A stretch of 14,279 nt of DNA, taken from the IMG/VR virus record IMGVR_UViG_3300029079_000040; one strand, written 5' to 3'. Origin of the DNA: a virus. Taxonomy: Duplodnaviria; Heunggongvirae; Uroviricota; Caudoviricetes. Position numbers and translations under genes: made by a program. Position 1 is the first letter of the stretch. Each line of letters begins with the position of its first letter. Of this stretch, positions 2,007 through 12,276 are shown one piece after another. The notes beneath the pieces are model-generated. The model saw nothing but the letters and a program-made list of their open reading frames with translations, searched no databases and had not been told where the DNA came from.

Positions 2007-2115
2007 CTTATCTCTCCCCTTAACGCCGGGTGGGTGAATTTTAACTGGGAGAGCTGGCGTCCGAATGTCGTCCAGCCAGGAATTGCGAAGTAATTTTTAC
2101 CGGGAGAAAAATTTA
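2007..2115. promoter_or_regulatory. 109-bp divergent intergenic region between the ydaG start (minus) and the first plus-strand gene; expected site of divergent early promoters and operators, but no repressor gene is present
   Basis: Positional inference only; no operator repeats confidently identified. Confidence 0.3.
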
Positions 2116-2877
2116 ATGGAGACTGTTTTTGACGCACTGAAAGCAATGGGAAAAGCCACATCCATAGAACTTGCTGCGCGACTTGATATCAGTCGTGAAG
2201 AAGTGCTGAACGAACTATGGGAACTGAAAAAGGCTGGTTTTGTTGATAAAAGCGCGTACACCTGGCGTGTGGCTGATAACAACGTTCAGCAGGAACAGCC
2301 AGCGCAGGCAGAACTGCCGGAAGAAATCACCACAGCAACAGTAGCGAAAATCTCAGAGTGCGATTTAACCGCGACGATTGAACAACGAGGACCACAAACG
2401 GCTGATGAGCTGGCTACATTGTTTGGTACCACATCACGCAAAGTGGCTTCAACGCTGGCAATGGCAATCAGCAAAGGTCGTCTGATTCGCGTAAATCAGG
2501 GCGGTAAATTTCGTTACTGCATACCGGGCGATAATTTACCAGCAGAGCCGAAAGCAGCATCGGTAGCGGAAACTGATGGTAAGGCCTTTCCTCAGACCGC
2601 AGGTGTTGCGTTACCAGTACAGGAGGCTGCAACACAGGAAGATATTAAAACAGAAACTGTGGCGGACATTGTGCAGTCGCTGCCATCGTTTACTGAAACG
2701 CGAGCGGATGACCTGGTTTTACCATCACTGCATATGGCAAACCGCGAACTGCGTCGGGCGAAAAATCATGTCCAGAAGTGGGAGCGTGTCTGCGCCGCGC
2801 TGCGTGAGTTGAACAAGCACAGGGATATTGTACGACAGATTACTGATTCTTCCCGCCATGTTGCATCGGAAAAGTGA
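2116..2877 (+). CDS. Hypothetical protein, 253 aa, with two apparent winged-helix-like segments; possible DNA-binding regulator or initiator
   Basis: Track ORF 2065..2877; start preferred at [13 protein letters not shown]... (ATG 2116), which has GGGAG 9 nt upstream. The segments [30 protein letters not shown] and [32 protein letters not shown] look like winged-helix recognition units. Family not recognised. Confidence 0.55.
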
Positions 2878-2892
2878 TTGCCGGAGGCACCT

Positions 2893-3315
2893 ATGGCAAA
2901 AGTATTTACACCAGAAGAGCGAGAAAAAATTAAAGGACAGGTTGTTGAACTTGTACCTCTGAGCGGTCGCGAGACGTTACGGCAACTGGAAGCCAAGACA
3001 GGTGAGACAAGATATCTGATGAGTGTTCTCGCCAGTGAGCTGGTTGCCAGTGGCGATGTATACAACTCTGGTTACGGGTTATTCCCGTCTGAACAGGCGC
3101 GTAAAGACTGGCAAAACGCCCGCAAAAAACTATCGAGGGCAAAGGTGAAGAAACCTGCTGTAGTTGATCCGGACCTTATCTGGTCATTACCAGACGGAGA
3201 AATACGCCGCTATGACAGGCGTCTGAATATAATCTGTCGCGAGTGCCGGAAGAGCGAAGTCATGCAGCGTGTACTGGCGTTCTATCAGGGTAATTTTCAG
3301 GATGTGCTGTTGTGA
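2893..3315 (+). CDS. Hypothetical protein, 140 aa, basic C-terminal half with a CxxC pair
   Basis: Track ORF 2878..3315; start preferred at MAKVFTPEEREK (ATG 2893) with GGAGG upstream. Function not recognised. Confidence 0.5.
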   Translation: MAKVFTPEEREKIKGQVVELVPLSGRETLRQLEAKTGETRYLMSVLASELVASGDVYNSGYGLFPSEQARKDWQNARKKLSRAKVKKPAVVDPDLIWSLPDGEIRRYDRRLNIICRECRKSEVMQRVLAFYQGNFQDVLL

Positions 3316-3419
3316 GCCAAATTAACAATCAGGGAACTGCGTGAACTGAAAGAGAAATCATAATCCAAATCTGAATAATTAAATTTAGCACTGTAAATAA
3401 AATTTAATCCTTAACCGGA

Positions 3420-3428
3420 GGGGGGGGG
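3420..3428. repeat. Homopolymeric G9 tract in the leader of the 3478 gene
   Basis: Read directly: CCGGA-GGGGGGGGG-CTGCGCCCTC, about 50 nt upstream of the ATG at 3478. It is followed by a GCCC-GAAA-GGGC tetraloop hairpin that sits next to the Shine-Dalgarno sequence. Confidence 0.9.
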
Positions 3429-3477
3429 CTGCGCCCTCAAAATATTAGGAGGCGGCCCGAAAGGGCGGTAATGAAAA

Positions 3478-3981
3478 ATGACTGAATTAACCAAAAAGCA
3501 ATTAATCGAAGAAGCTAAATTAAAAATAGCGATTGAGAAATGCCACCCCAATTCAGGGATGGCACGGGTAGAGGGCGAATTATTCAAAATTGCTCTGGCA
3601 TCGCTGGAAGCAGAGCCAGTTGGTGATTTTTATGAATACAAACCGGATGACTGGTATCAGCGTTCGGCTGGAGATAAAGCGCCAAAATGGACGCCACCCT
3701 ATGCCGTTTTTCCAGCGCCCGTAGTGCCGGAAGAAATGGATTTGCTTACATGCCATCTCGATGGTGTAACTGAAACATATGCTGAGGGATGGAACGCTTG
3801 CCGCGCTGCCCTGCTTCAGGGCAAAGGGGAGCCCGGGAAACAAGTTCGCGAATTGACAATGCTGGTTAAACAATTGGTTAGTCAACTGAAGAAACCGAAA
3901 CCGGGCTGCAAATTGCCGGATAAAGTGATGGACTACCTGGAGCGAAGCGGACTTATAAGCGTGGAGGATGTTTTACGATGA
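3478..3981 (+). CDS. Hypothetical protein, 167 aa
   Basis: Track ORF; TAGGAGG 11 nt upstream. N-terminal predicted helical/coiled region (MTELTKKQLIEEAKLKIAIEK). Family not recognised with confidence. Confidence 0.55.
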   Translation: MTELTKKQLIEEAKLKIAIEKCHPNSGMARVEGELFKIALASLEAEPVGDFYEYKPDDWYQRSAGDKAPKWTPPYAVFPAPVVPEEMDLLTCHLDGVTETYAEGWNACRAALLQGKGEPGKQVRELTMLVKQLVSQLKKPKPGCKLPDKVMDYLERSGLISVEDVLR

Positions 3982-4061
3982 CCTGGCCTGAAGCATTCAC
4001 AACGGTAGGAATTGCGATGGCGGTGGCGCTGGTGGTGTATTCGATTTGCCGCTGGGGTTGA
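3978..4061 (+). CDS. Possible 27-aa single-pass membrane peptide, translationally coupled to the upstream gene
   Basis: ATG at 3978 overlaps the upstream TGA (ATGA). Translation MTWPEAFTTVGIAMAVALVVYSICRWG has a hydrophobic core. It ends just before a terminator-like hairpin. Too short for the ORF track. Confidence 0.3.
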   Translation: MTWPEAFTTVGIAMAVALVVYSICRWG

Positions 4062-4073
4062 TAATACTAAATA

Positions 4074-4097
4074 ACCAGCCCTTATGGGGCTGGCTAA
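4074..4097. terminator. Bidirectional terminator-like hairpin between convergent genes
   Basis: CCAGCCC-TTAT-GGGCTGG stem-loop at about 4075-4093, between the 27-aa ORF (+) and the KilA-N gene (-). A-/T-rich flanks on both sides. Confidence 0.4.
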
Positions 4098-4101
4098 TCA
4101 T

Positions 4102-4875
4102 TTAGAACTGTTCATTGCCATCGAGGTTAGGTAGCATAATTTTTTCAATCAAGGCGAGAGCCTTTTTGTCCCGGTCAGCGAAGTATTTCGGGGCATATTG
4201 CGGCAACCAAATATTGTTAAAATGTTCTTTGAAATCTGCTAAATATTCATTTGGGTACAGCCTTGCAGGGTATACGCGACCATCGGGATATTCATGGTCA
4301 TAGGTAGGGAATGTTTTGGGTTCTACGTTTCTATTATCTCTTAACCATTGTGAAAATACTCTTCCTTGTGAAATGTCAGGAACCATTTTTTCTGGGAGTG
4401 TGTACCCTGCTTGTTCAAGAGGTGCAACCAAGTTGAATGTCAGTTCATTAAGAATAGAAAAGTGCGTGTGAGGAATTCTACTACGATTAACCATGTACCG
4501 TTTTAAATGTACAGGCATTTCTGCTGTAGTTCTTTCCCCTGACATCCATTCACGAACCCATCTTGAAACCTGGACTGCAAATTTGGGCGATAGCCACTGC
4601 GCTAGATTAATAGCGATGTCAGGATGCACCCATGTCCCTTGGTTTTCAGGTCTTCCACCTTTAAATGATTGAATTAACTCCGATATGGGAATTCCCATAT
4701 CGCGTGATAATTCGTCAAAAAACTCTTGAGTAGTTTTGAGTCTAGTGTAATCAGAGAGCAGTTTGCCCGCAGTTCTACACATTGATGTGGCGTTTATGTA
4801 ACCATCTTTGGCACGTAAATGTATTATTTCGCCGTCAATTTCACGAGAAATCAAAGATAATTGAAAGGATGTCAT
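4102..4875 (-). CDS. KilA-N domain protein, 257 aa
   Basis: N-terminal region (GYINATSMCRTAGKLLSDYTRL ... GTWVHPDIAINLAQWLSPKFAVQVSRWV) matches the KilA-N/APSES-type DNA-binding domain signature as I know it. GAGGAA 8 nt upstream of the ATG. C-terminal domain unrecognised. Confidence 0.75.
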   Translation of the reverse strand: MTSFQLSLISREIDGEIIHLRAKDGYINATSMCRTAGKLLSDYTRLKTTQEFFDELSRDMGIPISELIQSFKGGRPENQGTWVHPDIAINLAQWLSPKFAVQVSRWVREWMSGERTTAEMPVHLKRYMVNRSRIPHTHFSILNELTFNLVAPLEQAGYTLPEKMVPDISQGRVFSQWLRDNRNVEPKTFPTYDHEYPDGRVYPARLYPNEYLADFKEHFNNIWLPQYAPKYFADRDKKALALIEKIMLPNLDGNEQF

Positions 4876-5341
4876 TGAAAATTCCTCAAGTTGGAGAGTT
4901 CTGGAACATTAAGGCGAGGTGGCAGTAATGCACCATCTGTAATCTTTTGATACTGACGTAATCGGGCCTGATGTGCAACGCCTTGCAAGTATGTAACTCA
5001 TTGAAAACGATCATTTTTATCTATTGACATCAAATGGCAAACTGTCATTGTGCGGCTATGGCAAGTGGCAAATGCTTATAAATCATATGGATATAAATAG
5101 TACAGAAAGAGTTGTTTTCTCTAGGATATGAGTATACGCCCAATGCTGATTGGTTGAATTTTGTTCTTGTTTTAAAGGGTAAGAGTTTAAAGTGTTGGCA
5201 GTGATGTATTGGATAGTTAGAATTGCTGTGGGTGCTTGAGGCTATCTGCCTCGGGCATGAACACCAAAGGTAGATAGAGAAAAGCCCCAGTTAACATTAC
5301 GCGTCCTGCAAGACGTTTAACATTAATCTGAGGCCATATCT

Positions 5342-5401
5342 ATGCGACACATAGAGATTAGCCTCTTACGGACCGAAAGGTCAAGGAGAAGCAGGCTATG
5401 A
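5342..5401 (+). CDS. Short leader ORF (19 codons) ending in ATGA overlap with the hok start; possible mok-like coupling frame
   Basis: ATG 5342 to TGA 5399-5401, overlapping hok ATG 5398-5400. By analogy to mok/hok translational coupling; weak. Confidence 0.25.
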   Translation: MRHIEISLLRTERSRRSRL

Positions 5402-5523
5402 AGCAGCAAAAGGCGATGTTAATCGCCCTGATCGTCATCTGTTTAACCGTCATAGTGACGGCACTGGTAACGAGGAAAGACCTCTGCGAGGTACGAATCC
5501 GAACTGGCAGACGGAGGCTCTGA
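5398..5523 (+). CDS. hokD: Hok/Gef-family type I toxin (HokD/RelF-like N-terminus), 41 aa as read; C-terminus diverges or is frameshifted
   Basis: Translation MKQQKAMLIALIVICLTVIVTALVTRKDLCEVRIRTG-RRRL. The first 37 residues match HokD/RelF as I remember it. AGGAG 9 nt upstream. Canonical Hok proteins continue ...QTEVAVFTAYEPEE; here the +1 frame reads QTEALIRRLLI. Confidence 0.65.
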   Translation: MKQQKAMLIALIVICLTVIVTALVTRKDLCEVRIRTGRRRL

Positions 5524-5605
5524 TTCGTAGACTACTAATCTGAGTAAAAGACCCAGCGGGGAAAGAACCACGCCGGGACTAGTTAATAAGATATTTATAG
5601 CGTGG

Positions 5606-5947
5606 CTATTCTTTTTTTGCGGTATAGACTTTTTCGCCTGAGAAGTCTGGAGCTACCCAAAAGTTAATATTAAACTGAGCATCATCGCTTAGTTCAACAC
5701 GGTGCCAGTATTGTGGTGGGCTTGTTGCAAAAGCGCCAGCATTAATGACTACTTTTATCTCCGGTTCAGTAGCATTCTCATCAGCAAAACCATAATATGT
5801 TACAGTACCTTCCATCACGCATAACTGTCCAAAAACACCTGCTGCTGTATTATGATGTGTTAATAACGCTGAAGGTACGTTCTCTTTTGTGAAGAACGGA
5901 GTTGAGCGTTTGATTACCCAGTCTTTAGGAATTCTCTTGTGTGTCAT
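5606..5947 (-). CDS. YeaR-like protein (DUF1971, tellurite-resistance-related family), 113 aa
   Basis: Track ORF 5606..5971; start preferred at MTHKRIPKDWVIKRSTPFF (ATG 5947) with GGGAGGTG 5 nt upstream. Aligns by eye with chromosomal YeaR (RSTPFW..., FNIDFFVAPE-like motif FNINFWVAPD). Confidence 0.7.
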   Translation of the reverse strand: MTHKRIPKDWVIKRSTPFFTKENVPSALLTHHNTAAGVFGQLCVMEGTVTYYGFADENATEPEIKVVINAGAFATSPPQYWHRVELSDDAQFNINFWVAPDFSGEKVYTAKKE

Positions 5948-5961
5948 AACCACCTCCCATA

Positions 5962-5986
5962 AAACATGCATTATAAATGCACCTTT
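5962..5986. promoter_or_regulatory. NsrR-box-like palindrome ATGCAT-TATAA-ATGCAC immediately upstream of the YeaR-like gene
   Basis: Sequence AAACATGCATTATAAATGCACCTTT compared with the NsrR consensus AAGATGCATTT-n-AAATGCATCTT (established for E. coli, including the chromosomal yeaR promoter). The match is judged by eye. Confidence 0.35.
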
Positions 5987-6314
5987 TTGAGGGTTATGTC
6001 AAGCTGTTATGAAACACATAATTGATATGTTGATTAGAGGAGAAGATAGAATCAATATGGTTGTTTTTCGTATAACTATTTGTTTTACTTTTAGTTTGTG
6101 CATTCTGTGTGTTAGGAATAACTTATTAAAGTTTAACTAAAAAATCTCGATATAGTCCGCATAGATTACTGTTACTGAATCTTATTGTGTGCATTAGTTG
6201 TGTTCTGAAATTTCAATTTAATTACTTATGATATATTTTTAACGATAAATGTTTTCCGGGTGAAAGACAGTGGGGGATGAGATAAGCAATATATCATTAA
6301 TCTTGATTATTTCC

Positions 6315-6376
6315 AGGATGCCTTTACTGTGCATATAAATAAATCATATACGCATCAAATAATGTAAAGGCATCCT
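6315..6376. repeat. Perfect 13-bp inverted repeat AGGATGCCTTTAC / GTAAAGGCATCCT separated by 36 nt of AT-rich sequence
   Basis: Read directly from the sequence (6315-6327 and 6364-6376). The loop contains TGTGCATATAAAT; the right arm is followed by TTTTAG. Confidence 0.9.
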
Positions 6377-6814
6377 TTTAGATATATCTTATCAAATGTT
6401 AATGATTTGAGTGGGAAACATGATTCCAGAAACTAATCATGCGGCTACTTTATAAAAATAATGCCCATATAAAACAGCCAGCGAAAAGGATTACGGATAA
6501 AAAAGGAGCGAGATGTGCATAGTTGTTATTTTCCATGTTTAACCACCTTAAATAATTGATGATGACGGGATGTGCATCTGTAATGCTTTTGTTGAAATGT
6601 TATGATAAAAAAGAACTTTTTCATAACATTAAAATGTAATTTATCTAATCGTTTTTAATAATAAGTGTTGTATTTCTATCCTTGTATCAGCTATTTGATA
6701 TGTAGTGTTTGTTCATGTTATGTGGAGCTTTACACCATAGCCAGTTTATTTATACTTTATTCGTCAGCCTGAACAACTGGCATCTGCTGCACTGCGCCAT
6801 CGAGAGATTGAGAA

Positions 6815-7414
6815 ATGGCGCATATACAACTGGTCAAACAAACCTCTTCTGGACTACTTCTCCCGGCGACGCCGGAGAGTTGCGATTTTTTGCATCAAAT
6901 CAAAATAGGCGAGTGGATACACGCAGACTTTAAGCGTGTGCGTAACTACGCATTCCACAAGCGTTTTTTCAAACTCCTGCAACTGGGATTCGATTACTGG
7001 ACTCCGGTCGGTGGGGCGATCACGCCTCGCGAACGAAAGCTGGTTTCAGGATTCGTTGATTACCTATGTGAATCAGTAGGCCGGGAACATACGCCAGCTC
7101 TGAGCGAAGCCGCAGAGCAATATCTGAATACAGTTGCGACACGCAGAACCCGGGATACGGCATTGCTAAAGTCGTTTGAGGCTTTCCGCGAGTGGGTAAC
7201 CATTCAGGCCGGATTTTACACCGAGCATCTTTATCCTGATGGTAGCCATGGGCGTCGGGCGAAATCCATCGCTTTTGCGAATATGGACGAAACCGAGTTT
7301 CAGCAGGTTTATAAATCTGTTCTGAATGTGCTGTGGAACTGGATTCTGTTCCGTAAATTTTCCTCTCCGGAACAAGTCGAAAATGTGACCGCGCAGCTGC
7401 TGGAGTTTGCGTAA
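6815..7414 (+). CDS. nin-region protein, DUF1367-like, 199 aa
   Basis: Track ORF. Position immediately upstream of the YbcO-like gene and Q; the family name is a recollection. The stop overlaps the next start (TAATG). Confidence 0.6.
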   Translation: MAHIQLVKQTSSGLLLPATPESCDFLHQIKIGEWIHADFKRVRNYAFHKRFFKLLQLGFDYWTPVGGAITPRERKLVSGFVDYLCESVGREHTPALSEAAEQYLNTVATRRTRDTALLKSFEAFREWVTIQAGFYTEHLYPDGSHGRRAKSIAFANMDETEFQQVYKSVLNVLWNWILFRKFSSPEQVENVTAQLLEFA

Positions 7415-7704
7415 TGGTGGATTTACGTAAAGCGGCGCGGGGGCAGATGTGCACCGTCAGAATTCCTGGCTACTGCAATCACGATCCGGAAACGTCTGTG
7501 CTGGCGCATTACCGACTGGCGGGAACGTGCGGAACAGCGACAAAACCACACGATATGCAGGCGGCGATTGCCTGTAGCTCATGCCACGATCTAATCGACG
7601 GGCGGGTAAAAACCAGCGATTACACCAAAGAAGAATTACGCCTGATGCATGCAGAAGGTGTTTTTCGCACACAAGAAATCTGGAGAAAGGAGGGATATTT
7701 GTGA
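7414..7704 (+). CDS. ybcO: YbcO-like protein (DUF1364, putative metal-dependent nuclease), 96 aa
   Basis: MVDLRKAARGQMCTVRIPGYCNHDPETSVLAHYR ... ACSSCHD closely resembles DLP12 YbcO (MADLRKAARGRECQVRIPGVCN...) as I recall it, with conserved Cys residues and the same length. Confidence 0.7.
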   Translation: MVDLRKAARGQMCTVRIPGYCNHDPETSVLAHYRLAGTCGTATKPHDMQAAIACSSCHDLIDGRVKTSDYTKEELRLMHAEGVFRTQEIWRKEGYL

Positions 7705-8243
7705 TTTACCCAACGAATACAGGAAAAAGCGGAGAACACCTTCGTCTCGCCACGCTGGAAAGTGTCTGGATTCAGGGCAAACTGCGTATGTGGGGGCGCT
7801 GGTCGTATATTGGCGGTGGCAGGTCAGGAAATATGTTCAATCAGTTGTTGGCATCCAAAAAATTGACGAAAACAGCCATCAATGAAGCCCTGCGCAGAAT
7901 GAAAAAAGCGGGAATAGAGAAAGCTGAGCTGGAAGCGTTTTTGCGAGAGATGATCAACGGCAAGCAAAAGAGCTGGCTGGCGCATTGTACTGATGCAGAG
8001 GCGTTATGTATTGATCGAGTCATAAGTGAGGTGCTGGCAGAGCATCCTGGATTGATTAGTGTCCTCCGGCAACGGTATGAAGGACGGGGGATGACTAAGC
8101 GCAAAATGGCTGAATTGCTAAATGATGCACATCCTGAGTGGTGTTTTAGCACATGCGAAAAGCGAATTGCTAATTGGTTGGCTGTTGCTGAGTATGCCCT
8201 ATATATTCCCATGCGAGAATCATTTGCTCAAAAAATAGCTTGA
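7701..8243 (+). CDS. Late-gene antiterminator Q-like protein, about 180 aa from a GTG start
   Basis: Track ORF 7581..8243; preferred start is GTG 7701 (AAGGAGGG 5 nt upstream, GTGA overlap with the ybcO-like stop). Position directly upstream of a promoter-plus-terminator unit and the lysis cassette. Family assignment (phage Q antiterminator) is by context and partial recollection. Confidence 0.55.
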   Translation: MIYPTNTGKSGEHLRLATLESVWIQGKLRMWGRWSYIGGGRSGNMFNQLLASKKLTKTAINEALRRMKKAGIEKAELEAFLREMINGKQKSWLAHCTDAEALCIDRVISEVLAEHPGLISVLRQRYEGRGMTKRKMAELLNDAHPEWCFSTCEKRIANWLAVAEYALYIPMRESFAQKIA

Positions 8244-8270
8244 TTTTTTACGCATAAACTGCTTCAATTC
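8240..8270 (+). promoter_or_regulatory. Candidate late promoter (PR-prime analogue): TTGATT-17 nt-TTCAAT overlapping the Q stop
   Basis: -35-like TTGATT at 8240-8245 and -10-like TTCAAT at 8263-8268; about 60 nt upstream of a terminator. By eye only. Confidence 0.3.
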
Positions 8271-8326
8271 CGGTATGCTTCGCAAAGCTGTATCGCGAGG
8301 CGAACCAAGCGCATGAACTTTACCAG

Positions 8327-8356
8327 AACCCGCCATTGAGCGGGTTTTGTTGTTTC
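8327..8356 (+). terminator. Intrinsic terminator, tR-prime analogue downstream of Q
   Basis: AACCCGC-CATTGA-GCGGGTT stem-loop followed by TTTTGTTGTTTCT. Confidence 0.55.
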
Positions 8357-8404
8357 TGGTACTGGTGAACCTGATGTTTCATTTCTGGAGCGCGATTCCT
8401 GGCG

Positions 8405-8436
8405 GAATACCTAGAATCGAGACATTCTGGTAAAAT
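8405..8436 (+). promoter_or_regulatory. Candidate extended -10 promoter (TGgTAAAAT) for the membrane-protein moron
   Basis: TGG-TAAAAT at 8428-8436, about 30 nt upstream of the ATG at 8465. Weak -35. Confidence 0.3.
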
Positions 8437-8464
8437 TGTTTTCAGTACAGGATGTGGAGGTGAG

Positions 8465-9034
8465 ATGAGAGAACTACCTAAAGATTATTTTTTAGGAGTA
8501 GATGATGAGCTCGTCGATTATCTTGAAAAACAAGGGGAAGAGACGATACGAGAGATTCATCTTTCTAACAAAACCAATGTTGAGAATGGATACAAACTTC
8601 TGAACATTCAGATTGTTGGAATTGGTTCATCTTTTTTATTGCTGACACAGAAAACTAATTTCGATTTTCTCACCGCCGGAATTACCACATTTACATTACT
8701 ATGGACATGGTGCGCCATTTACTTGGTATGTACTGGTTTATCTGTGAAGGTTAGGGGCCTGATCAATGCCCCTCCTGATCATATATATCATGAAAAATAT
8801 AAGGATATGGAGCCCTCGAGCTTTAAAATATTCGCTGATGCAGGATATTTAGGACCTGATAAGTTATTGCCGCTTATACGAAGGTATCGCCTTGTTGACT
8901 TGAGTGATACAGCAAGAGAGTTACTGTTGGAAAATGAGAAAATCCGCACGAGTCTCGATAAAGCAAGGATGTATACCATCCTTGCTCCGGTAGCGGCGAT
9001 GTTTATCTCGGCTGTTTTTTTATATGTTCAATGA
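8465..9034 (+). CDS. Hypothetical integral membrane protein, 189 aa, three predicted transmembrane helices; moron between Q and the holin
   Basis: Track ORF with GGAGGTGAG immediately upstream. Hydrophobic segments LLNIQIVGIGSSFLLL, ITTFTLLWTWCAIYLVCTGL and MYTILAPVAAMFISAVFLYV; acidic N-terminus. Visibly AT-rich compared with the flanking Q and lysis genes. No family recognised. Confidence 0.65.
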   Translation: MRELPKDYFLGVDDELVDYLEKQGEETIREIHLSNKTNVENGYKLLNIQIVGIGSSFLLLTQKTNFDFLTAGITTFTLLWTWCAIYLVCTGLSVKVRGLINAPPDHIYHEKYKDMEPSSFKIFADAGYLGPDKLLPLIRRYRLVDLSDTARELLLENEKIRTSLDKARMYTILAPVAAMFISAVFLYVQ

Positions 9035-9164
9035 CTGAGTCGGCAGAATCTCCAACAAAAACACGACGTGTAGCAAAGTCTGTAGTACTTTGTGTTGGAG
9101 TTGGTTTTGGTGCCACGGGTTGCTGAGGTTTATTTTCACCTTGTGGTTTGTTTTTTTCAGACAT
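9003..9164 (-). CDS. Possible 53-aa Pro/Gln/Lys-rich small protein, convergent with and overlapping the 3-prime end of the membrane-protein gene
   Basis: Within track ORF 9003..9395; internal start MSEKNKPQGENKPQQPVAPKPTPTQSTTDFATRRVFVGDSADSVIEHIKKQPR has AGAGGA 5 nt upstream of the ATG at 9164..9162. Low complexity. Confidence 0.4.
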   Translation of the reverse strand: MSEKNKPQGENKPQQPVAPKPTPTQSTTDFATRRVFVGDSADSVIEHIKKQPR

Positions 9165-9258
9165 AAAAATCCTCTTTGTTTGAATTGTTACTTTTGGCGA
9201 TTTAACGATATCAAACACGAGTATATACCGCCAGAAGCTTAATCTGGCACTCCATCTG

Positions 9259-9286
9259 GCCCCGGCATGTCCCGGGGCTTTTTCGT
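9259..9286 (+). terminator. Strong intrinsic terminator upstream of the holin gene
   Basis: GCCCCGG-CATGTC-CCGGGGC stem followed by TTTTTCGTTGTT. Confidence 0.6.
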
Positions 9287-9381
9287 TGTTAGGCTCTGGA
9301 AACATCCTCGACTTCTTGTTAGCAAGCCTGAGAGCCTGAATCTTACACTTAGCACCATCCGAACTCTCGGAGGTGAGGCTT

Positions 9382-9723
9382 ATGAAAATGCACAATGCCC
9401 CTCATTCCTGGCCTGACTTACTGGAACTCTTACAAAGTTGGTGGCGTGGAGATACGCCGCTGGGTGCAGTGGTTATGTCAATTATTATGGCTGGTTTGCG
9501 CATTGCCTATTTTGGCGGTGGCGGCGGCTGGAAACGAAAAACGCTTGAGATTCTGCTTTGTGGTGCTCTGACGCTGACCTTTGCATCCGCGCTTGAGTAT
9601 GTCGGATGGCCTAAATCACTTTCTGTTGCCATTGGTGGTGGGGTGGGGCTGATTGGTGTTGATGCTATTCGTGGTGCGGCAATGAGGGTCATCGGTAACA
9701 AGTTCGGTGCCCATAAGGAGTAA
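9382..9723 (+). CDS. S: Class I holin with Met-Lys-Met dual-start motif (lambda S-like arrangement), 113 aa from the first ATG
   Basis: GGAGGTGA 6 nt upstream of ATG 9382. MKMHNAP... parallels lambda S107/S105 (MKMPEK). Three hydrophobic segments. Immediately followed by the R endolysin. The track used an upstream GTG (9373). Confidence 0.75.
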   Translation: MKMHNAPHSWPDLLELLQSWWRGDTPLGAVVMSIIMAGLRIAYFGGGGGWKRKTLEILLCGALTLTFASALEYVGWPKSLSVAIGGGVGLIGVDAIRGAAMRVIGNKFGAHKE

Positions 9724-9726
9724 TTA

Positions 9727-10203
9727 ATGCAGACACTTAATTCCCAGCGTAAAGCTTTCCTTGATATGGTGGCATGGTCAGAAGGAACAGATAACGGACG
9801 GCAGAAAACCAGAAATCACGGTTATGATGTTATTGTCGGTGGCGAACTGTTCACTGATTACTCCGATCACCCCCGCAAACTTGTCACGCTAAATCCGAAA
9901 CTCAAATCAACAGCCGCTGGACGTTACCAGCTTCTTTCACGCTGGTGGGATGCCTACCGCAAGCAACTTGGCCTGAAAGATTTTTCTCCAGAAAGTCAGG
10001 ATGCTGTAGCGCTGCAGCAGATTAAAGAGCGTGGCGCTTTGCCGATGATTGATCGCGGTGATATCCGTCAGGCTATCGACCGTTGCAGCAATATATGGGC
10101 TTCACTGCCGGGCGCTGGTTATGGTCAGTTCGAGCATAAGGCTGACAGTCTGATTGCAAAATTCAAAGAAGCTGGCGGAACGGTCAGAGAGATTGAGGTA
10201 TGA
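9727..10203 (+). CDS. R: Endolysin, lambda R-type lytic transglycosylase, 158 aa
   Basis: Near-identical by eye to lambda R (…[58 protein letters not shown]…). Confidence 0.9.
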
Positions 10204-10681
10204 GCAGAGTAACCGCGATTATCTCCGCTCTGGTTATCTGCATCGTCGTCTGCCTGTCATGGGGTGTTAATCATTACCGTGATAACGCCATCGCCTACAA
10301 AGAACAGCGCGACAAAAATGCCAGAGAACTGAAGCTGGCGAACGCGGCAATTACTGACATGCAGATGCGTCAGCGTGATGTTGCTGCGCTCGATGCAAAA
10401 TACACGAAGGAGTTAGCTGATGCGAAAGCTGAAAATGATGCTCTGCGTGATGATGTTGCCGCTGGTCGTCGTCGGTTGCACATCAAAGNNNNNNNNNNNN
10501 NNNNNNNNTCTGTCAGTCAGTGCGTGAAGCCACCACCGCCTCCGGCGTGGATAATGCAGCCTCCCCCCGACTGGCAGACACCGCTGAACGGGATTATTTC
10601 ACCCTCCGGGAACGACTGGTAATGATGCAGGCCCAACTTGAAGGTGCTCAGCAATACATAACCGAGCAGTGTTTAAAGTAA
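10200..10681 (+). CDS. Rz: Rz i-spanin; reading frame interrupted by a 20-nt N run, so coordinates are in window numbering
   Basis: N-terminal [96 protein letters not shown] matches lambda Rz. After the N run, the correct frame reads ...[57 protein letters not shown], stop at 10679-10681. Confidence 0.85.
10420..10622 (+). CDS. Rz1: Rz1 o-spanin lipoprotein embedded in the +1 frame of Rz
   Basis: AAGGAG 8 nt upstream of ATG 10420. [23 protein letters not shown]...[N run]...[37 protein letters not shown] matches lambda Rz1, with its lipobox LVVVGC and proline-rich region. Confidence 0.8.
10489..10508. other. Run of 20 N (assembly gap or masked bases) inside Rz/Rz1
   Basis: Literal n characters in the sequence. 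Comparison with lambda suggests the real content here is about 3 nt (CAG), not 20. Confidence 1.
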
Positions 10682-10818
10682 AATCTTAACTACAATATGA
10701 TTCATTTTGATGATTGTTTCATAAGGAACAGTGAAGTAAGATCTAAGAGGAGTTAAATTTTATACAGTATAATCATAATATTGCAGCAAGGTGGTTATAA
10801 TTGAAAGAATATTTAGAT

Positions 10819-12276
10819 ATGAATACATCTCATGTAAGAGTTGTTACTCATATGTGTGGGTTCCTGGTTTGGCTCTATAGTCTTTCAATGTTGCCACCAA
10901 TGGTTGTAGCATTGTTTTATAAAGAAAAAAGCCTGTTCGTTTTCTTTATAACTTTCGTTATATTTTTTTGCATTGGTGGCGGAGCGTGGTATACAACTAA
11001 GAAATCTGGCATTCAATTACGTACCCGTGATGGGTTTATTATAATTGTAATGTTTTGGATTTTGTTTTCTGTTATTAGTGCATTCCCTTTATGGATTGAC
11101 TCAGAACTTAATTTAACGTTCATTGATGCTCTGTTTGAAGGGGTTTCTGGAATAACAACAACAGGAGCAACTGTAATTGATGATGTTAGTTCATTACCTC
11201 GGGCATATTTGTACTATCGGTCACAGTTAAATTTTATAGGTGGTTTAGGAGTTATTGTTCTGGCGGTTGCTGTATTGCCATTATTGGGTATTGGTGGTGC
11301 AAAGCTTTATCAGTCAGAAATGCCGGGGCCATTTAAGGATGACAAACTCACTCCCCGCCTGGCCGATACGTCACGGACACTGTGGATAACTTATTCTTTA
11401 TTAGGTATTGCTTGTATTGTCTGTTATAGACTTGCAGGAATGCCTTTGTTTGATGCTATTTGTCACGGGATTTCCACAGTTTCGCTTGGTGGTTTCTCAA
11501 CTCATAGCGAGAGTATCGGATATTTTAATAACTATTTGGTTGAGCTGGTGGCTGGTTCTTTTTCCCTGCTATCGGCTTTCAACTTCACTCTTTGGTATAT
11601 TGTTATTAGCAGGAAAACGATAAAACCTTTAATCAGAGATATTGAACTTCGTTTCTTTCTGTTAATAGCCTTAGGGGTGATCATTGTTACCTCTTTCCAG
11701 GTCTGGCATATAGGTATGTATGACTTGCATGGAAGTTTTATTCATTCGTTTTTTCTTGCCAGCTCCATGCTCACTGATAATGGTTTAGCTACGCAGGATT
11801 ATGCAAGTTGGCCCACGCACACGATAGTGTTTTTGCTGTTGTCAAGTTTCTTTGGGGGATGTATAGGTTCAACTTGTGGTGGAATTAAGTCACTTCGATT
11901 TCTTATACTTTTCAAACAAAGCAAACACGAGATAAATCAGCTTTCTCATCCCAGAGCGTTGTTGAGTGTAAATGTAGGAGGGAAGATAGTTACAGATCGT
12001 GTAATGAGGTCTGTATGGAGTTTCTTTTTTCTTTATACTCTCTTCACGGTGTTTTTTATACTGGTGTTAAATGGTATGGGATATGATTTTCTTACATCAT
12101 TTGCAACAGTGGCTGCATGTATTAATAATATGGGATTAGGTTTTGGGGCTACTGCATCGTCATTCGGAGTGCTTAATGACATTGCAAAATGTTTAATGTG
12201 CATAGCTATGATTCTTGGTCGCCTTGAAATTTATCCTGTTATTATATTGTTTTCAGGTTTTTTTTGGCGCTCCTAA
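10819..12276 (+). CDS. trkG: TrkG, TrkH-family potassium uptake membrane protein, 485 aa
   Basis: Multi-pass membrane protein with repeated pore-loop-like GxG motifs. Sequence from MNTSHVRVVTHMCGFLVWLY matches Rac trkG as I recall it, and the position directly after Rz/Rz1 is the Rac arrangement. Track ORF starts at TTG 10801; the ATG at 10819 gives 485 aa. Confidence 0.85.
   Translation: MNTSHVRVVTHMCGFLVWLYSLSMLPPMVVALFYKEKSLFVFFITFVIFFCIGGGAWYTTKKSGIQLRTRDGFIIIVMFWILFSVISAFPLWIDSELNLTFIDALFEGVSGITTTGATVIDDVSSLPRAYLYYRSQLNFIGGLGVIVLAVAVLPLLGIGGAKLYQSEMPGPFKDDKLTPRLADTSRTLWITYSLLGIACIVCYRLAGMPLFDAICHGISTVSLGGFSTHSESIGYFNNYLVELVAGSFSLLSAFNFTLWYIVISRKTIKPLIRDIELRFFLLIALGVIIVTSFQVWHIGMYDLHGSFIHSFFLASSMLTDNGLATQDYASWPTHTIVFLLLSSFFGGCIGSTCGGIKSLRFLILFKQSKHEINQLSHPRALLSVNVGGKIVTDRVMRSVWSFFFLYTLFTVFFILVLNGMGYDFLTSFATVAACINNMGLGFGATASSFGVLNDIAKCLMCIAMILGRLEIYPVIILFSGFFWRS

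What the first reader, a model, noticed from the sequence alone, without database searches (positions are those of the whole stretch)
5606..5990. Prophage-borne YeaR-like (DUF1971) gene with an NsrR-like operator: a possible nitric-oxide-responsive cargo gene
The minus-strand gene resembles chromosomal YeaR. Directly upstream lies AAACATGCATTATAAATGCACCTTT, close to the NsrR inverted-repeat consensus (two ATGCAT hexamers 5 nt apart). Chromosomal yeaR is a known NsrR/NarL-regulated gene. If the box is functional, the prophage carries a nitrosative-stress-inducible moron, which would link prophage cargo expression to host stress in the gut or macrophage.
Basis: partly seen in the sequence, partly recalled or inferred. 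Interest (0 to 1): 0.5.

Follow-up and report, generated by a model that had tools for sequence, protein, structure and literature searches.

The report
Prophage cargo gene with NsrR operator
A Rac-type E. coli prophage carries a small stress-protein gene together with its own binding site for the host's nitric-oxide sensor NsrR, so this phage cargo is very probably switched on when the bacterium meets nitric oxide; both the gene family and this control are already known from Salmonella.

Summary
A 113-aa DUF1971 gene lies at 5606-5947 (-); the true start is ATG 5947, not 5971. Fifteen nt upstream is AAGGTGCATTTATAATGCATGTT (5963-5985). It matches the NsrR 11-1-11 consensus at 19/22 positions. 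A PWM built from 26 published CFT073 sites gives 24.7 bits, second only to ytfE. The next best site in the window scores 9.3, no shuffle reached the score, and P is about 3.5e-10 per position.

The protein is only 44% identical to YeaR. It is 77-83% identical to a chromosomal subfamily whose Salmonella member sits beside dsbB, the STM1808 position; STM1808 is a published NsrR-regulon gene. All 55 enterobacterial orthologue loci carry a box 15-27 nt before the ATG (54 score 16.8-27.7 bits, one indel-disrupted), so gene and operator travelled together.

The gene sits in a 931-bp cassette (5518-6448) with promoter elements and a terminator-like hairpin. The cassette is inserted between hok and the DUF1367 gene and truncates hok. 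It occurs in 457 of 5426 complete E. coli genomes, in Rac-type prophage DNA in all four contexts inspected; K-12 Rac lacks this interval.

Verdict: a real, probably NO-derepressed moron and a new member of a known kind. Regulation and the promoter are not experimentally shown.

The parts
5518..6448 (.). 931-bp cargo (moron) cassette inserted between hok and the DUF1367 gene of the Rac-type backbone
   Evidence: Backbone homology to the prophage in NZ_CP128931 runs over window 5218-5517 and 6449-6900. That prophage has 142 bp where the window has 931 bp. The segment 5990-6450 is found in essentially the same set of genomes as the gene (463 vs 457 genomes).
5545..5577 (-). Terminator-like hairpin (CCCGGCGUGG...CCCCGCUGGG, 5552-5577) followed by UCUUUUA (5545-5551), 29 nt after the stop codon
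   Evidence: RNA fold and coordinates. The simple terminator scanner did not flag it, so this is a prediction only.
5606..5947 (-). DUF1971 protein gene, 113 aa (stop codon TAG 5606-5608), STM1808/VfR98-type subfamily
   Evidence: Pfam PF09313, E 3e-26. RefSeq WP_001445776.1. 78% identical to PDB 3DL3 (E 2.6e-59) and matched to YeaR 3BB6 at E 4.6e-25. 44% identical to K-12 YeaR. 77-83% identical to Kluyvera, Citrobacter, Klebsiella, Salmonella and Vibrio proteins.
5950..5958 (-). Shine-Dalgarno sequence GGGAGGTGG
   Evidence: Sequence. GGAGG is conserved at this position in the orthologue alignment.
5963..5985 (.). NsrR operator, 11-1-11 inverted repeat AAGGTGCATTTATAATGCATGTT (read on the - strand)
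   Evidence: 24.7 bits; 19/22 matches to AAGATGCATTT-N-AAATGCATCTT. Conserved in position and sequence across orthologues and prophage alleles.
5970..5979 (-). Candidate -10 elements inside the operator: CATTTA (5974-5979), the position homologous to the orthologues' TAT(T/A)TT and 17 nt from the -35; and a perfect TATAAT (5970-5975), 21 nt from the -35
   Evidence: Coordinates and alignment. The sigma-70 scanner found no canonical promoter here. The TSS is unmapped.
5997..6002 (-). -35 hexamer TTGACA
   Evidence: Coordinates. It aligns with the conserved TTTACA/TTGACG of the orthologues and is invariant in the 13 E. coli prophage-type upstream haplotypes.
6004..6448 (.). A+T-rich (29% G+C) upstream part of the cassette, role unknown
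   Evidence: Composition. No Rfam hit, no plasmid match, only short ORFs.
5230..5523 (+). Flanking hok/sok locus. sok RNA (5230-5400) is intact. hok (5398-5523) is cut to 41 aa by the cassette junction
   Evidence: Rfam RF01794, 101.5 bits. Pfam HOK_GEF. 36/38 identical to HokD and then divergent; HokD is 51 aa. The junction is at 5517/5518.

Best explanation
The interval 5518-6448 is a self-contained cargo cassette (moron) in a Rac-type lambdoid prophage. It is transcribed opposite to the phage early and late genes.

It encodes a 113-aa DUF1971 protein of the STM1808 type. Its core promoter is embedded in a high-affinity binding site for the host repressor NsrR.

Proposed mechanism:
- In unstressed lysogens, holo-NsrR ([4Fe-4S]) occupies the 11-1-11 palindrome at 5963-5985. 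This site contains both candidate -10 hexamers and lies 11 nt downstream of the -35 TTGACA, so RNA polymerase is excluded.
- Nitric oxide nitrosylates the cluster, NsrR leaves the DNA, and the gene is transcribed from a short leader of about 17-22 nt carrying a strong Shine-Dalgarno sequence.
- Transcription probably ends at the hairpin at 5545-5577.

The product is expected to add tolerance to nitrosative or oxidative stress, as reported for Salmonella STM1808 and UPEC YeaR.

Shown here: the gene family, operator quality and specificity, conservation of the operator-gene pair, cassette boundaries and distribution.

Inferred: NsrR occupancy, NO induction, promoter use, termination, and the benefit to the lysogen.
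For: Operator quality. The box scores 24.7 bits and ranks between ytfE (28.2, leave-one-out) and hcp (21.8). It scores above yeaR (19.9), ygbA (19.1) and hmp (17.1). P is 3.5e-10 per position. It is specific relative to matched palindromes.

Phylogenetic footprint. All 55 enterobacterial orthologue loci have a recognisable box 15-27 nt from the ATG (54 at 16.8-27.7 bits; L012 indel-disrupted, 10.9), while surrounding non-coding sequence diverges. A -35-like hexamer sits a constant 17 nt before a TAT(T/A)TT that lies inside the distal half-site.

Architecture shared with yeaR. The chromosomal yeaR box AAATGGTATTTAAAATGCAAATT carries the -10-like hexamer TAAAAT in the same register as TATAAT here; whether TAAAAT is the yeaR -10 was not checked against a mapped TSS.

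Link to STM1808. The Salmonella orthologue lies in the order nhaB-dsbB-X, the position of STM1808. STM1808 is described as NsrR-regulated with a role in virulence in PMC7527575, citing Karlinsey 2012. YeaR is NO-, NsrR- and NarL-regulated and contributes to oxidative-stress resistance in UPEC (PMC4959519).

Moron anatomy. Insertion is relative to a sister prophage. The gene is in opposite orientation to the backbone. There is a hairpin plus U-tract.

Persistence. The gene is in 457 of 5426 E. coli genomes, including a decayed Rac remnant where it sits at the deletion edge. All 35 E. coli prophage-type viral-contig copies with upstream sequence keep a box of 16.8-26.3 bits.
Against: There is no experimental datum for this gene in E. 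coli. NsrR ChIP data exist only for K-12 and CFT073, and the gene does not appear among the CFT073 sites.

The promoter of this allele is not canonical. The hexamer 17 nt from TTGACA is CATTTA, which lacks the key T6. The perfect TATAAT is 21 nt from the -35. The sigma-70 scanner reports nothing here.

The most common E. coli allele has a weakened distal half-site (AACACGCAT..., 19.8 bits).

The 445-bp, 29% G+C upstream tract could attract H-NS silencing (inference).

The biochemical function of DUF1971 proteins is unknown. Most Vibrionaceae orthologues lack a proximal box, so NsrR control is not universal in the family.
Confidence: 0.78

Rival explanations
1. Inherited but inert. The box is a genuine NsrR site carried over from the chromosomal donor. 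In the prophage alleles the promoter has decayed or is H-NS-silenced, so the gene is not expressed, or not NO-responsive, and persists only by linkage to the Rac backbone.
For: The -10 and spacer geometry of this allele is non-canonical. The distal half-site is degraded in the commonest allele. The upstream tract is A+T-rich. The Fur-box-like element of the nearest chromosomal clade is lost.
Against: The ORF is intact in all 37 viral-contig copies, with only a few substitutions. TTGACA, the Shine-Dalgarno sequence and the proximal half-site are kept in essentially all alleles. Some alleles improve the box (AAGATGCATTTTTAATGCATCTT, 26.3 bits) and give TTGACA-17-CATTTT. The gene is retained at the very edge of a heavily deleted Rac remnant in about 350 genomes.
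Confidence: 0.13
2. Decoy or titration role. The main function of the cassette's high-affinity site is to sequester scarce NsrR when the phage genome replicates. This would derepress the host NsrR regulon (hmp, ytfE, hcp) during induction, with the gene itself secondary.
For: The site is among the strongest NsrR boxes known by PWM. It lies on a replicon that amplifies on induction. From general knowledge, multicopy NsrR sites titrate the repressor (Bodenmiller & Spiro 2006; not re-read here).
Against: The box-gene pair is inherited intact from chromosomal loci, where no amplification occurs. About 350 genomes keep it in a non-replicating remnant. No second site exists in the window; the next best scores 9.3 bits.
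Confidence: 0.05
3. The palindrome is an operator for another protein (a phage repressor or another Rrf2 regulator such as IscR), or it is a chance A+T-rich palindrome.
For: It is A+T-rich and only 8/11 self-complementary. Rrf2 proteins share a fold (general knowledge).
Against: It shows a position-specific match to the NsrR matrix that matched palindromes do not show. The same box is present upstream of chromosomal orthologues in more than a dozen genera that lack this phage. No similar sequence occurs elsewhere in the prophage.
Confidence: 0.03

Closest known systems
Salmonella Typhimurium STM1808 (NsrR-regulon DUF1971 protein; Karlinsey et al. 2012, as cited in PMC7527575)
   Same: About 80% protein identity to the Salmonella protein encoded next to dsbB. 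Same length (113 aa). H31, H32, C43 and H82 are invariant in the subfamily alignment. An NsrR box lies just upstream of the start codon (Salmonella L037: 18.3 bits, 27 nt from the ATG).
   Different: STM1808 is a core chromosomal gene placed after the dsbB terminator. Here the gene and operator ride in a prophage cassette, the box is 15 nt from the ATG, and the -35 is a consensus TTGACA. That L037 equals STM1808 rests on synteny plus my recollection of LT2 locus tags. The reported zinc binding and the H32/H82 requirement are recalled from the 2012 paper, which is not held.
E. coli yeaR-yoaG operon (NsrR-repressed, NarL-activated)
   Same: DUF1971 fold family. An NsrR 11-1-11 box carries a -10-like hexamer in the same register, TAAAAT versus TATAAT. 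The gene is induced by nitrosative stress.
   Different: Only 44% identity. There is no yoaG (DUF1869) partner; 82 nt after the stop lies the hok ORF. The yeaR box is 58 nt from its ATG, against 15 nt here. No NarL input is evident (uninformative).
Vibrio fischeri 'tellurite resistance protein B' VfR98 (PDB 3DL3) and the N-terminal DUF1971 domain of Haemophilus TehB (3M70)
   Same: 78% identity to 3DL3 over the full length, and E 3.7e-10 to the TehB N-domain.
   Different: These are structural-genomics entries without an assigned function. Most Vibrionaceae loci lack a proximal NsrR box. The window protein has no methyltransferase domain (113 aa; NCBIfam TehB model 48 bits against a cutoff of 303), so the RefSeq name 'TehB family protein' seen in some genomes overstates.
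Lambdoid prophage morons under host regulators (e.g. bor/lom of lambda, sodCI of Gifsy-2, trkG of Rac)
   Same: A discrete insertion between conserved backbone genes, with its own promoter and terminator. It is transcribed independently of, and opposite to, phage operons.
   Different: The regulator is the NO sensor NsrR. I found no paper describing a prophage-borne NsrR-controlled gene or a prophage DUF1971 gene in the held library.

Membership tests
Pfam DUF1971 (PF09313) | Match to the family HMM above the gathering score over the full domain | tested here: met
   91.6 bits against a cutoff of 23.1; profile positions 1-80 of 80.
STM1808-type DUF1971 subfamily | High full-length identity to the Salmonella dsbB-adjacent protein and its enterobacterial and Vibrio orthologues, with the subfamily-invariant residues kept | tested here: met
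   74-83% identity to 15 representatives. All 54 invariant columns, including H31, H32, C43 and H82, are present in the window protein. Salmonella synteny is nhaB-dsbB-X.
STM1808-type DUF1971 subfamily | Zinc metalloprotein that supports growth under nitrosative stress | not testable with these tools
   Needs metal analysis and mutant phenotypes. The property is recalled from Karlinsey 2012, which could not be opened.
YeaR orthologue (yeaR-yoaG operon) | Orthologous sequence level and operon partner yoaG (DUF1869) downstream | tested here: not met
   44% identity. It groups with a different subfamily. No ORF follows the gene before the hok junction.
NsrR regulon (operator) | 11-1-11 inverted repeat matching the NsrR position weight matrix at the level of validated sites | tested here: met
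   24.7 bits, against validated sites at 8.7-28.2 (leave-one-out). 19/22 matches to the consensus. P 3.5e-10 per position.
NsrR regulon (operator) | Site positioned to interfere with the core promoter | tested here: inconclusive
   Both candidate -10 hexamers lie inside the box, and the -35 is 11 nt upstream of it. The TSS is unmapped and the promoter geometry of this allele is non-canonical.
NsrR regulon (operator) | NsrR binding in vitro or in vivo, and derepression in an nsrR mutant or by NO | not testable with these tools
   No experimental data for this locus were found.
NsrR regulon (operator) | Evolutionary conservation of the site upstream of orthologues | tested here: met
   55/55 enterobacterial loci carry a recognisable box 15-27 nt before the ATG; 54 score at least 16.8 bits and one (L012) is indel-disrupted at 10.9. 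The flanks show only 3 sites of at least 15 bits in about 480 kb.
Prophage moron | Discrete insertion relative to related phages, with its own promoter and terminator, not part of phage operons | tested here: met
   931 bp against 142 bp in a sister prophage. Opposite strand. Promoter elements and a hairpin plus U-tract are predicted. Promoter and terminator function are not shown.
NarL/NarP-activated promoter (as yeaR) | NarL heptamers (TACYYMT, 7-2-7) upstream of the core promoter | tested here: inconclusive
   A strict heptamer scan found none in the window. It also found none in the known yeaR promoter, so the test lacks power.

The most novel reading that the evidence does not exclude
The cassette may be more than a stress gene under host control. 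It places one of the strongest NsrR sites in the cell on a replicon that amplifies on induction. Rac-type phage replication could therefore titrate the scarce NsrR repressor and derepress the host's whole NO-defence regulon. This would link prophage induction, which NO-damaged DNA can itself trigger, to host nitrosative-stress physiology. The allelic series in the distal half-site (GGT, CAC, GAT, GGA) would then tune the set-point.
Probability: 0.05. Interest if true: 0.7.

Novelty: new member of a known kind. Interest (0 to 1): 0.4.

Why it matters
E. coli has no core copy of the STM1808-type gene. At DNA-level sensitivity, the only copies among 5426 complete genomes are in these 457 genomes, and the four contexts inspected are all Rac-type prophage DNA. 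The prophage therefore supplies about 8% of strains, many of them clinical or poultry isolates, with an extra candidate member of the nitric-oxide stress regulon, already wired to the host sensor.

It is a clean example of a transcription-factor site and its target gene moving together as one mobile unit.

It also gives a simple, testable case of prophage cargo that responds to a host-immunity signal. The interval is deleted from K-12 Rac, which would explain why the gene is absent from K-12-based studies.

The conceptual step is modest, because both NsrR control of this family and host-regulated morons are established.

Tried and rejected
- **tRNA scan.** No tRNA genes in the window.
- **Rfam.** At gathering and at E up to 1 over 5500-6850, only sok and a chance snoRNA hit.
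- **Sigma-70 and terminator scanner.** No canonical promoter for the gene, and the hairpin found by folding was not flagged.
- **NarL heptamers.** Nothing found, even for the positive control yeaR, so the scan is uninformative.
- **Fur box.** Absent at the homologous position in the window (11/19, background level), although present in the Kluyvera/Leclercia clade.
- **Plasmid search with the A+T-rich upstream 445 bp.** No match.
- **Literature.** Karlinsey 2012 and Lin 2007 are not held. Searches for DUF1971 plus NsrR, NsrR plus moron, and YeaR plus cupin gave nothing relevant.
- **The three GenBank 'phage genomes' carrying the gene.** These are PHASTER-predicted intact prophages from carbapenemase-producing isolates, not isolated virions. 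They do not prove the element is inducible.
- **Rejected:** a YeaR orthologue; a TehB methyltransferase; a chance palindrome; the 121-aa start codon.

Full report
**1. What is in the sequence**

The window is 100% identical to a Rac-type lambdoid prophage in the chromosome of E. coli strain 50579417 (NZ_CP033884) and many other isolates. It runs from ydaT through the replication genes, a KilA-N gene, hok/sok, DUF1367/DUF1364/DUF1133 (the Q-like antiterminator block), holin, endolysin and spanin, trkG and ynaK, towards the terminase.

On the minus strand, ORF 5606-5971 contains a DUF1971 domain (PF09313, 91.6 bits, full-length). The biologically sensible start is ATG 5947, giving 113 aa. It is preceded by GGGAGGTGG (5950-5958), RefSeq uses it, and it aligns with the MSH/MTH start of all relatives. 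The upstream ATG at 5971 that yields the 121-aa form lies inside the palindrome.

The palindrome is 5963-5985. Read on the gene's strand it is AAGGTGCATTTATAATGCATGTT. On the + strand its hexamers are ATGCAT and ATGCAC, separated by 5 nt.

**2. Is the box more than chance?**

I built a strand-symmetrised weight matrix from 26 of the 27 11-1-11 NsrR sites listed for E. coli CFT073; c0233 was omitted because its sequence is identical to c0118 (Table 4 of Mehta et al. 2015, PMC5320621).

- The window box scores 24.7 bits. Leave-one-out scores of the training sites are 28.2 for ytfE, 21.8 for hcp, 19.9 for yeaR, 19.1 for ygbA and 17.1 for hmp, down to 8.7.
- The second-best position in the whole window scores 9.3.
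- None of 200 dinucleotide-preserving shuffles of the window reached the observed score (maximum 18.8).
- A matrix restricted to 18 ChIP-positive or genetically validated sites gives 23.9.
- The exact tail probability is 3.5e-10 per position. It is 2.2e-9 under a 70% A+T null. That corresponds to at most about 0.01 expected per 5.2-Mb genome.
Among 20,000 such pseudo-palindromes the mean was -14.7 and the maximum 21.8, and none reached 24.7.
- The box matches AAGATGCATTT-N-AAATGCATCTT at 19 of 22 positions. yeaR matches at 16, ygbA at 17 and hmp at 18.

The stated refutation criterion is therefore not met.

**3. What the gene is**

It is only 44% identical to K-12 YeaR. A database search gives 77-83% identity to 111-114-aa proteins of Kluyvera, Leclercia, Citrobacter, Klebsiella, Raoultella and Salmonella, and of Vibrio, Aliivibrio and Photobacterium. 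It is 78% identical over its full length to the crystallised Vibrio fischeri protein 3DL3; YeaR is 3BB6.

The subfamily is very conserved. There are 54 invariant columns among 16 representatives, including H31, H32, C43 and H82.

In Salmonella the gene follows nhaB and dsbB and is a widespread core protein (cluster members on at least 1000 contigs). To my knowledge of LT2 numbering, this is the position of STM1808. STM1808 is described as an NsrR-regulon gene with a role in virulence in PMC7527575, citing Karlinsey et al. 2012. The 2012 paper itself is not held. Its report that STM1808 is a zinc protein requiring H32 and H82 is from my memory only.

The gene is therefore a DUF1971 paralogue of YeaR, of the STM1808 type. 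It is not a YeaR orthologue and it has no yoaG partner.

**4. Gene and operator travel together**

A scan of one genome per species returned 80 loci.

- In all 55 enterobacterial loci, the best NsrR-matrix hit within 300 nt upstream lies at a fixed 15-27 nt before the ATG. In 54 it scores 16.8-27.7 bits; in L012 a one-base deletion drops it to 10.9.
- The rest of those loci (about 480 kb) contain only three sites of at least 15 bits.
- Most Vibrionaceae loci lack a proximal box.
- In an alignment of the 150 nt upstream, the box is the most conserved block. It is flanked by a conserved -35-like hexamer (TTTACA, TTGACG or TTGCCT) placed 17 nt before TAT(T/A)TT, and that hexamer lies inside the distal half-site. 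The Shine-Dalgarno sequence is also conserved; everything else diverges.

This is a classical phylogenetic footprint. It shows that the prophage imported a pre-assembled operator-promoter-gene unit.

The chromosomal yeaR promoter has the same logic. Its box AAATGGTATTTAAAATGCAAATT carries the -10-like hexamer TAAAAT in the same register as TATAAT in the window box.

**5. Cassette anatomy**

I compared the window with a sister prophage in which hokD is followed directly by DUF1367 (NZ_CP128931). Homology covers window 5218-5517 and 6449-6900. The window has 931 bp (5518-6448) where the sister has 142 bp.

- The left junction removes the last 13 or so codons of hok (41 aa against 51 aa; identical up to residue 37-38). 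sok is intact.
- Twenty-nine nt after the stop codon, a hairpin CCCGGCGUGG/CCCCGCUGGG followed by UCUUUUA (5545-5577) looks like an intrinsic terminator. The simple scanner did not flag it.
- Upstream of the -35 (TTGACA, 5997-6002) lie 445 bp of 29% G+C DNA with no recognisable feature.
- The gene is transcribed opposite to the phage operons.

**6. Distribution**

The gene occurs in 457 of 5426 complete E. coli genomes. Of these, 103 carry this allele at 99% identity or more, and 354 carry an allele at 95-97%. A blastn search sensitive to roughly 65-70% identity finds no further copies. E. coli therefore has no core orthologue.

Three sampled copies of the second allele (strains S21, JCKP02 and Ecol_224) sit at the left edge of a decayed Rac-type remnant. 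That remnant abuts the same chromosomal genes in each and is followed by DUF1367/1364/1133, lysis genes and, in S21 where the sampled stretch reaches that far, trkG.

K-12 Rac goes directly from ydaW to the rzpR pseudogene and trkG. The interval holding the cassette is deleted there.

Thirty-seven IMG/VR contigs carry the gene. Thirty-six have upstream sequence and give 14 distinct upstream haplotypes: 13 from the 35 E. coli prophage-type copies, plus L121 (79% identical, at a contig edge, Klebsiella-type promoter and box at 26.3 bits). Among the 13 E. coli haplotypes TTGACA is invariant, and the Shine-Dalgarno sequence and the proximal half-site are nearly so. The distal half-site varies (AAGGTGCAT, AACACGCAT, AAGATGCAT, AAGGAGCAT), with scores of 16.8-26.3 bits. 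The ORF is intact in all 37.

Three GenBank 'phage genomes' with the gene are PHASTER predictions from clinical isolates, not virions.

**7. Mechanism and its weak points**

The best explanation is NsrR occlusion of a promoter whose -10 lies within the operator, relieved when NO destroys the NsrR iron-sulfur cluster. The NsrR biochemistry is established knowledge. Mehta et al. restate the 11-1-11 motif and note that single half-sites can function.

The weak point is the promoter of this allele. The hexamer homologous to the orthologues' -10 is CATTTA, which has no T at position 6. The perfect TATAAT created 4 nt downstream is 21 nt from TTGACA. Other prophage alleles read TTGACA-17-CATTTT, a plausible promoter. 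Either way the -10 is inside the box, but promoter strength and the TSS need mapping.

No NarL input could be assessed. The Fur-box-like element that precedes the -35 in the Kluyvera/Leclercia clade (13-17 of 19 matches) is absent here.

**8. Novelty and verdict**

NsrR control of DUF1971 genes and host-regulated prophage morons are both known. I found no description of a prophage-borne NsrR-controlled gene or of this E. coli gene in the held library.

This is a well-supported new member of a known kind. It is of moderate interest as a ready-made experimental case and as an accessory addition to the E. coli NO regulon.

The most novel reading not excluded is that the strong site also acts as an NsrR decoy when the phage replicates. 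I rate that unlikely.

Noticed in passing
window 5398-5523 (hok) and junction 5517/5518: The cassette junction truncates hok to 41 aa (HokD is 51 aa; identical up to residue 37-38). It also removes the hok mRNA 3' region, while sok (5230-5400) is intact. The toxin-antitoxin locus is probably disabled. The DUF1971 transcript converges on it.
   Followed up: partly
L004-L024 (Kluyvera, Leclercia, Pantoea, Enterobacter, Pseudescherichia, Silvania, Buttiauxella), about 64-66 nt upstream of the orthologue's ATG: A conserved Fur-box-like element (e.g. GATAATGAGATTCATTATC, 13-17 of 19 matches to the Fur consensus) lies just upstream of the -35. This suggests dual Fur and NsrR control in that clade. 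It is absent from the Citrobacter/Klebsiella/Salmonella clade, where the dsbB terminator abuts the -35, and from the prophage copy (11/19, background level).
   Followed up: partly
window 6004-6448: 445 bp of 29% G+C DNA belongs to the cassette and is found in essentially the same genomes as the gene. It has no Rfam hit, no plasmid match and only short ORFs. Its role (H-NS target, regulatory region or donor remnant) is unexplained.
   Followed up: partly
window 10489-10508: A run of 20 N (masked bases) lies inside the spanin/Rz gene region.
   Followed up: no
L086-L122 (IMG/VR copies), box positions 3-5 and 10-12: Prophage alleles differ mainly in the distal NsrR half-site (AAGGTG, AACACG, AAGATG, AAGGAG) and in the centre (TTTAT or TTTTT). 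The proximal half-site is nearly fixed and TTGACA is fixed. This may be tuning of repression or promoter strength. The commonest E. coli allele has the weakest box (19.8 bits).
   Followed up: partly
L123 (K-12 MG1655 Rac, 1,422,752-1,423,782) versus window about 2100-10800: K-12 Rac jumps from ydaW to the rzpR pseudogene and trkG. It lacks the whole interval with KilA-N, hok/sok, the DUF1971 cassette, the Q-like block, holin and endolysin. The window shows the undeleted form of Rac.
   Followed up: yes
L055, L063 (Neptunomonas) and L076 (Photobacterium sagamiensis), flanks of the orthologue: Strong NsrR-matrix hits (19.5-21.8 bits) lie elsewhere in the 3-kb flanks, not directly upstream of the gene. 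They may be operators of neighbouring genes, or of an operon containing the orthologue. Most Vibrionaceae orthologues have no proximal box.
   Followed up: no
window 5606-5971; RefSeq annotations: Annotation is inconsistent. Some sources call the 121-aa form that starts inside the operator (cluster P0001). Some RefSeq records name the protein 'TehB family protein', although it lacks the methyltransferase domain (48 bits against a 303-bit cutoff for the TehB model).
   Followed up: yes
window 10801-12276: trkG, the potassium transporter gene known as Rac cargo, follows the lysis cassette. The prophage therefore carries at least two independent cargo genes.
   Followed up: no
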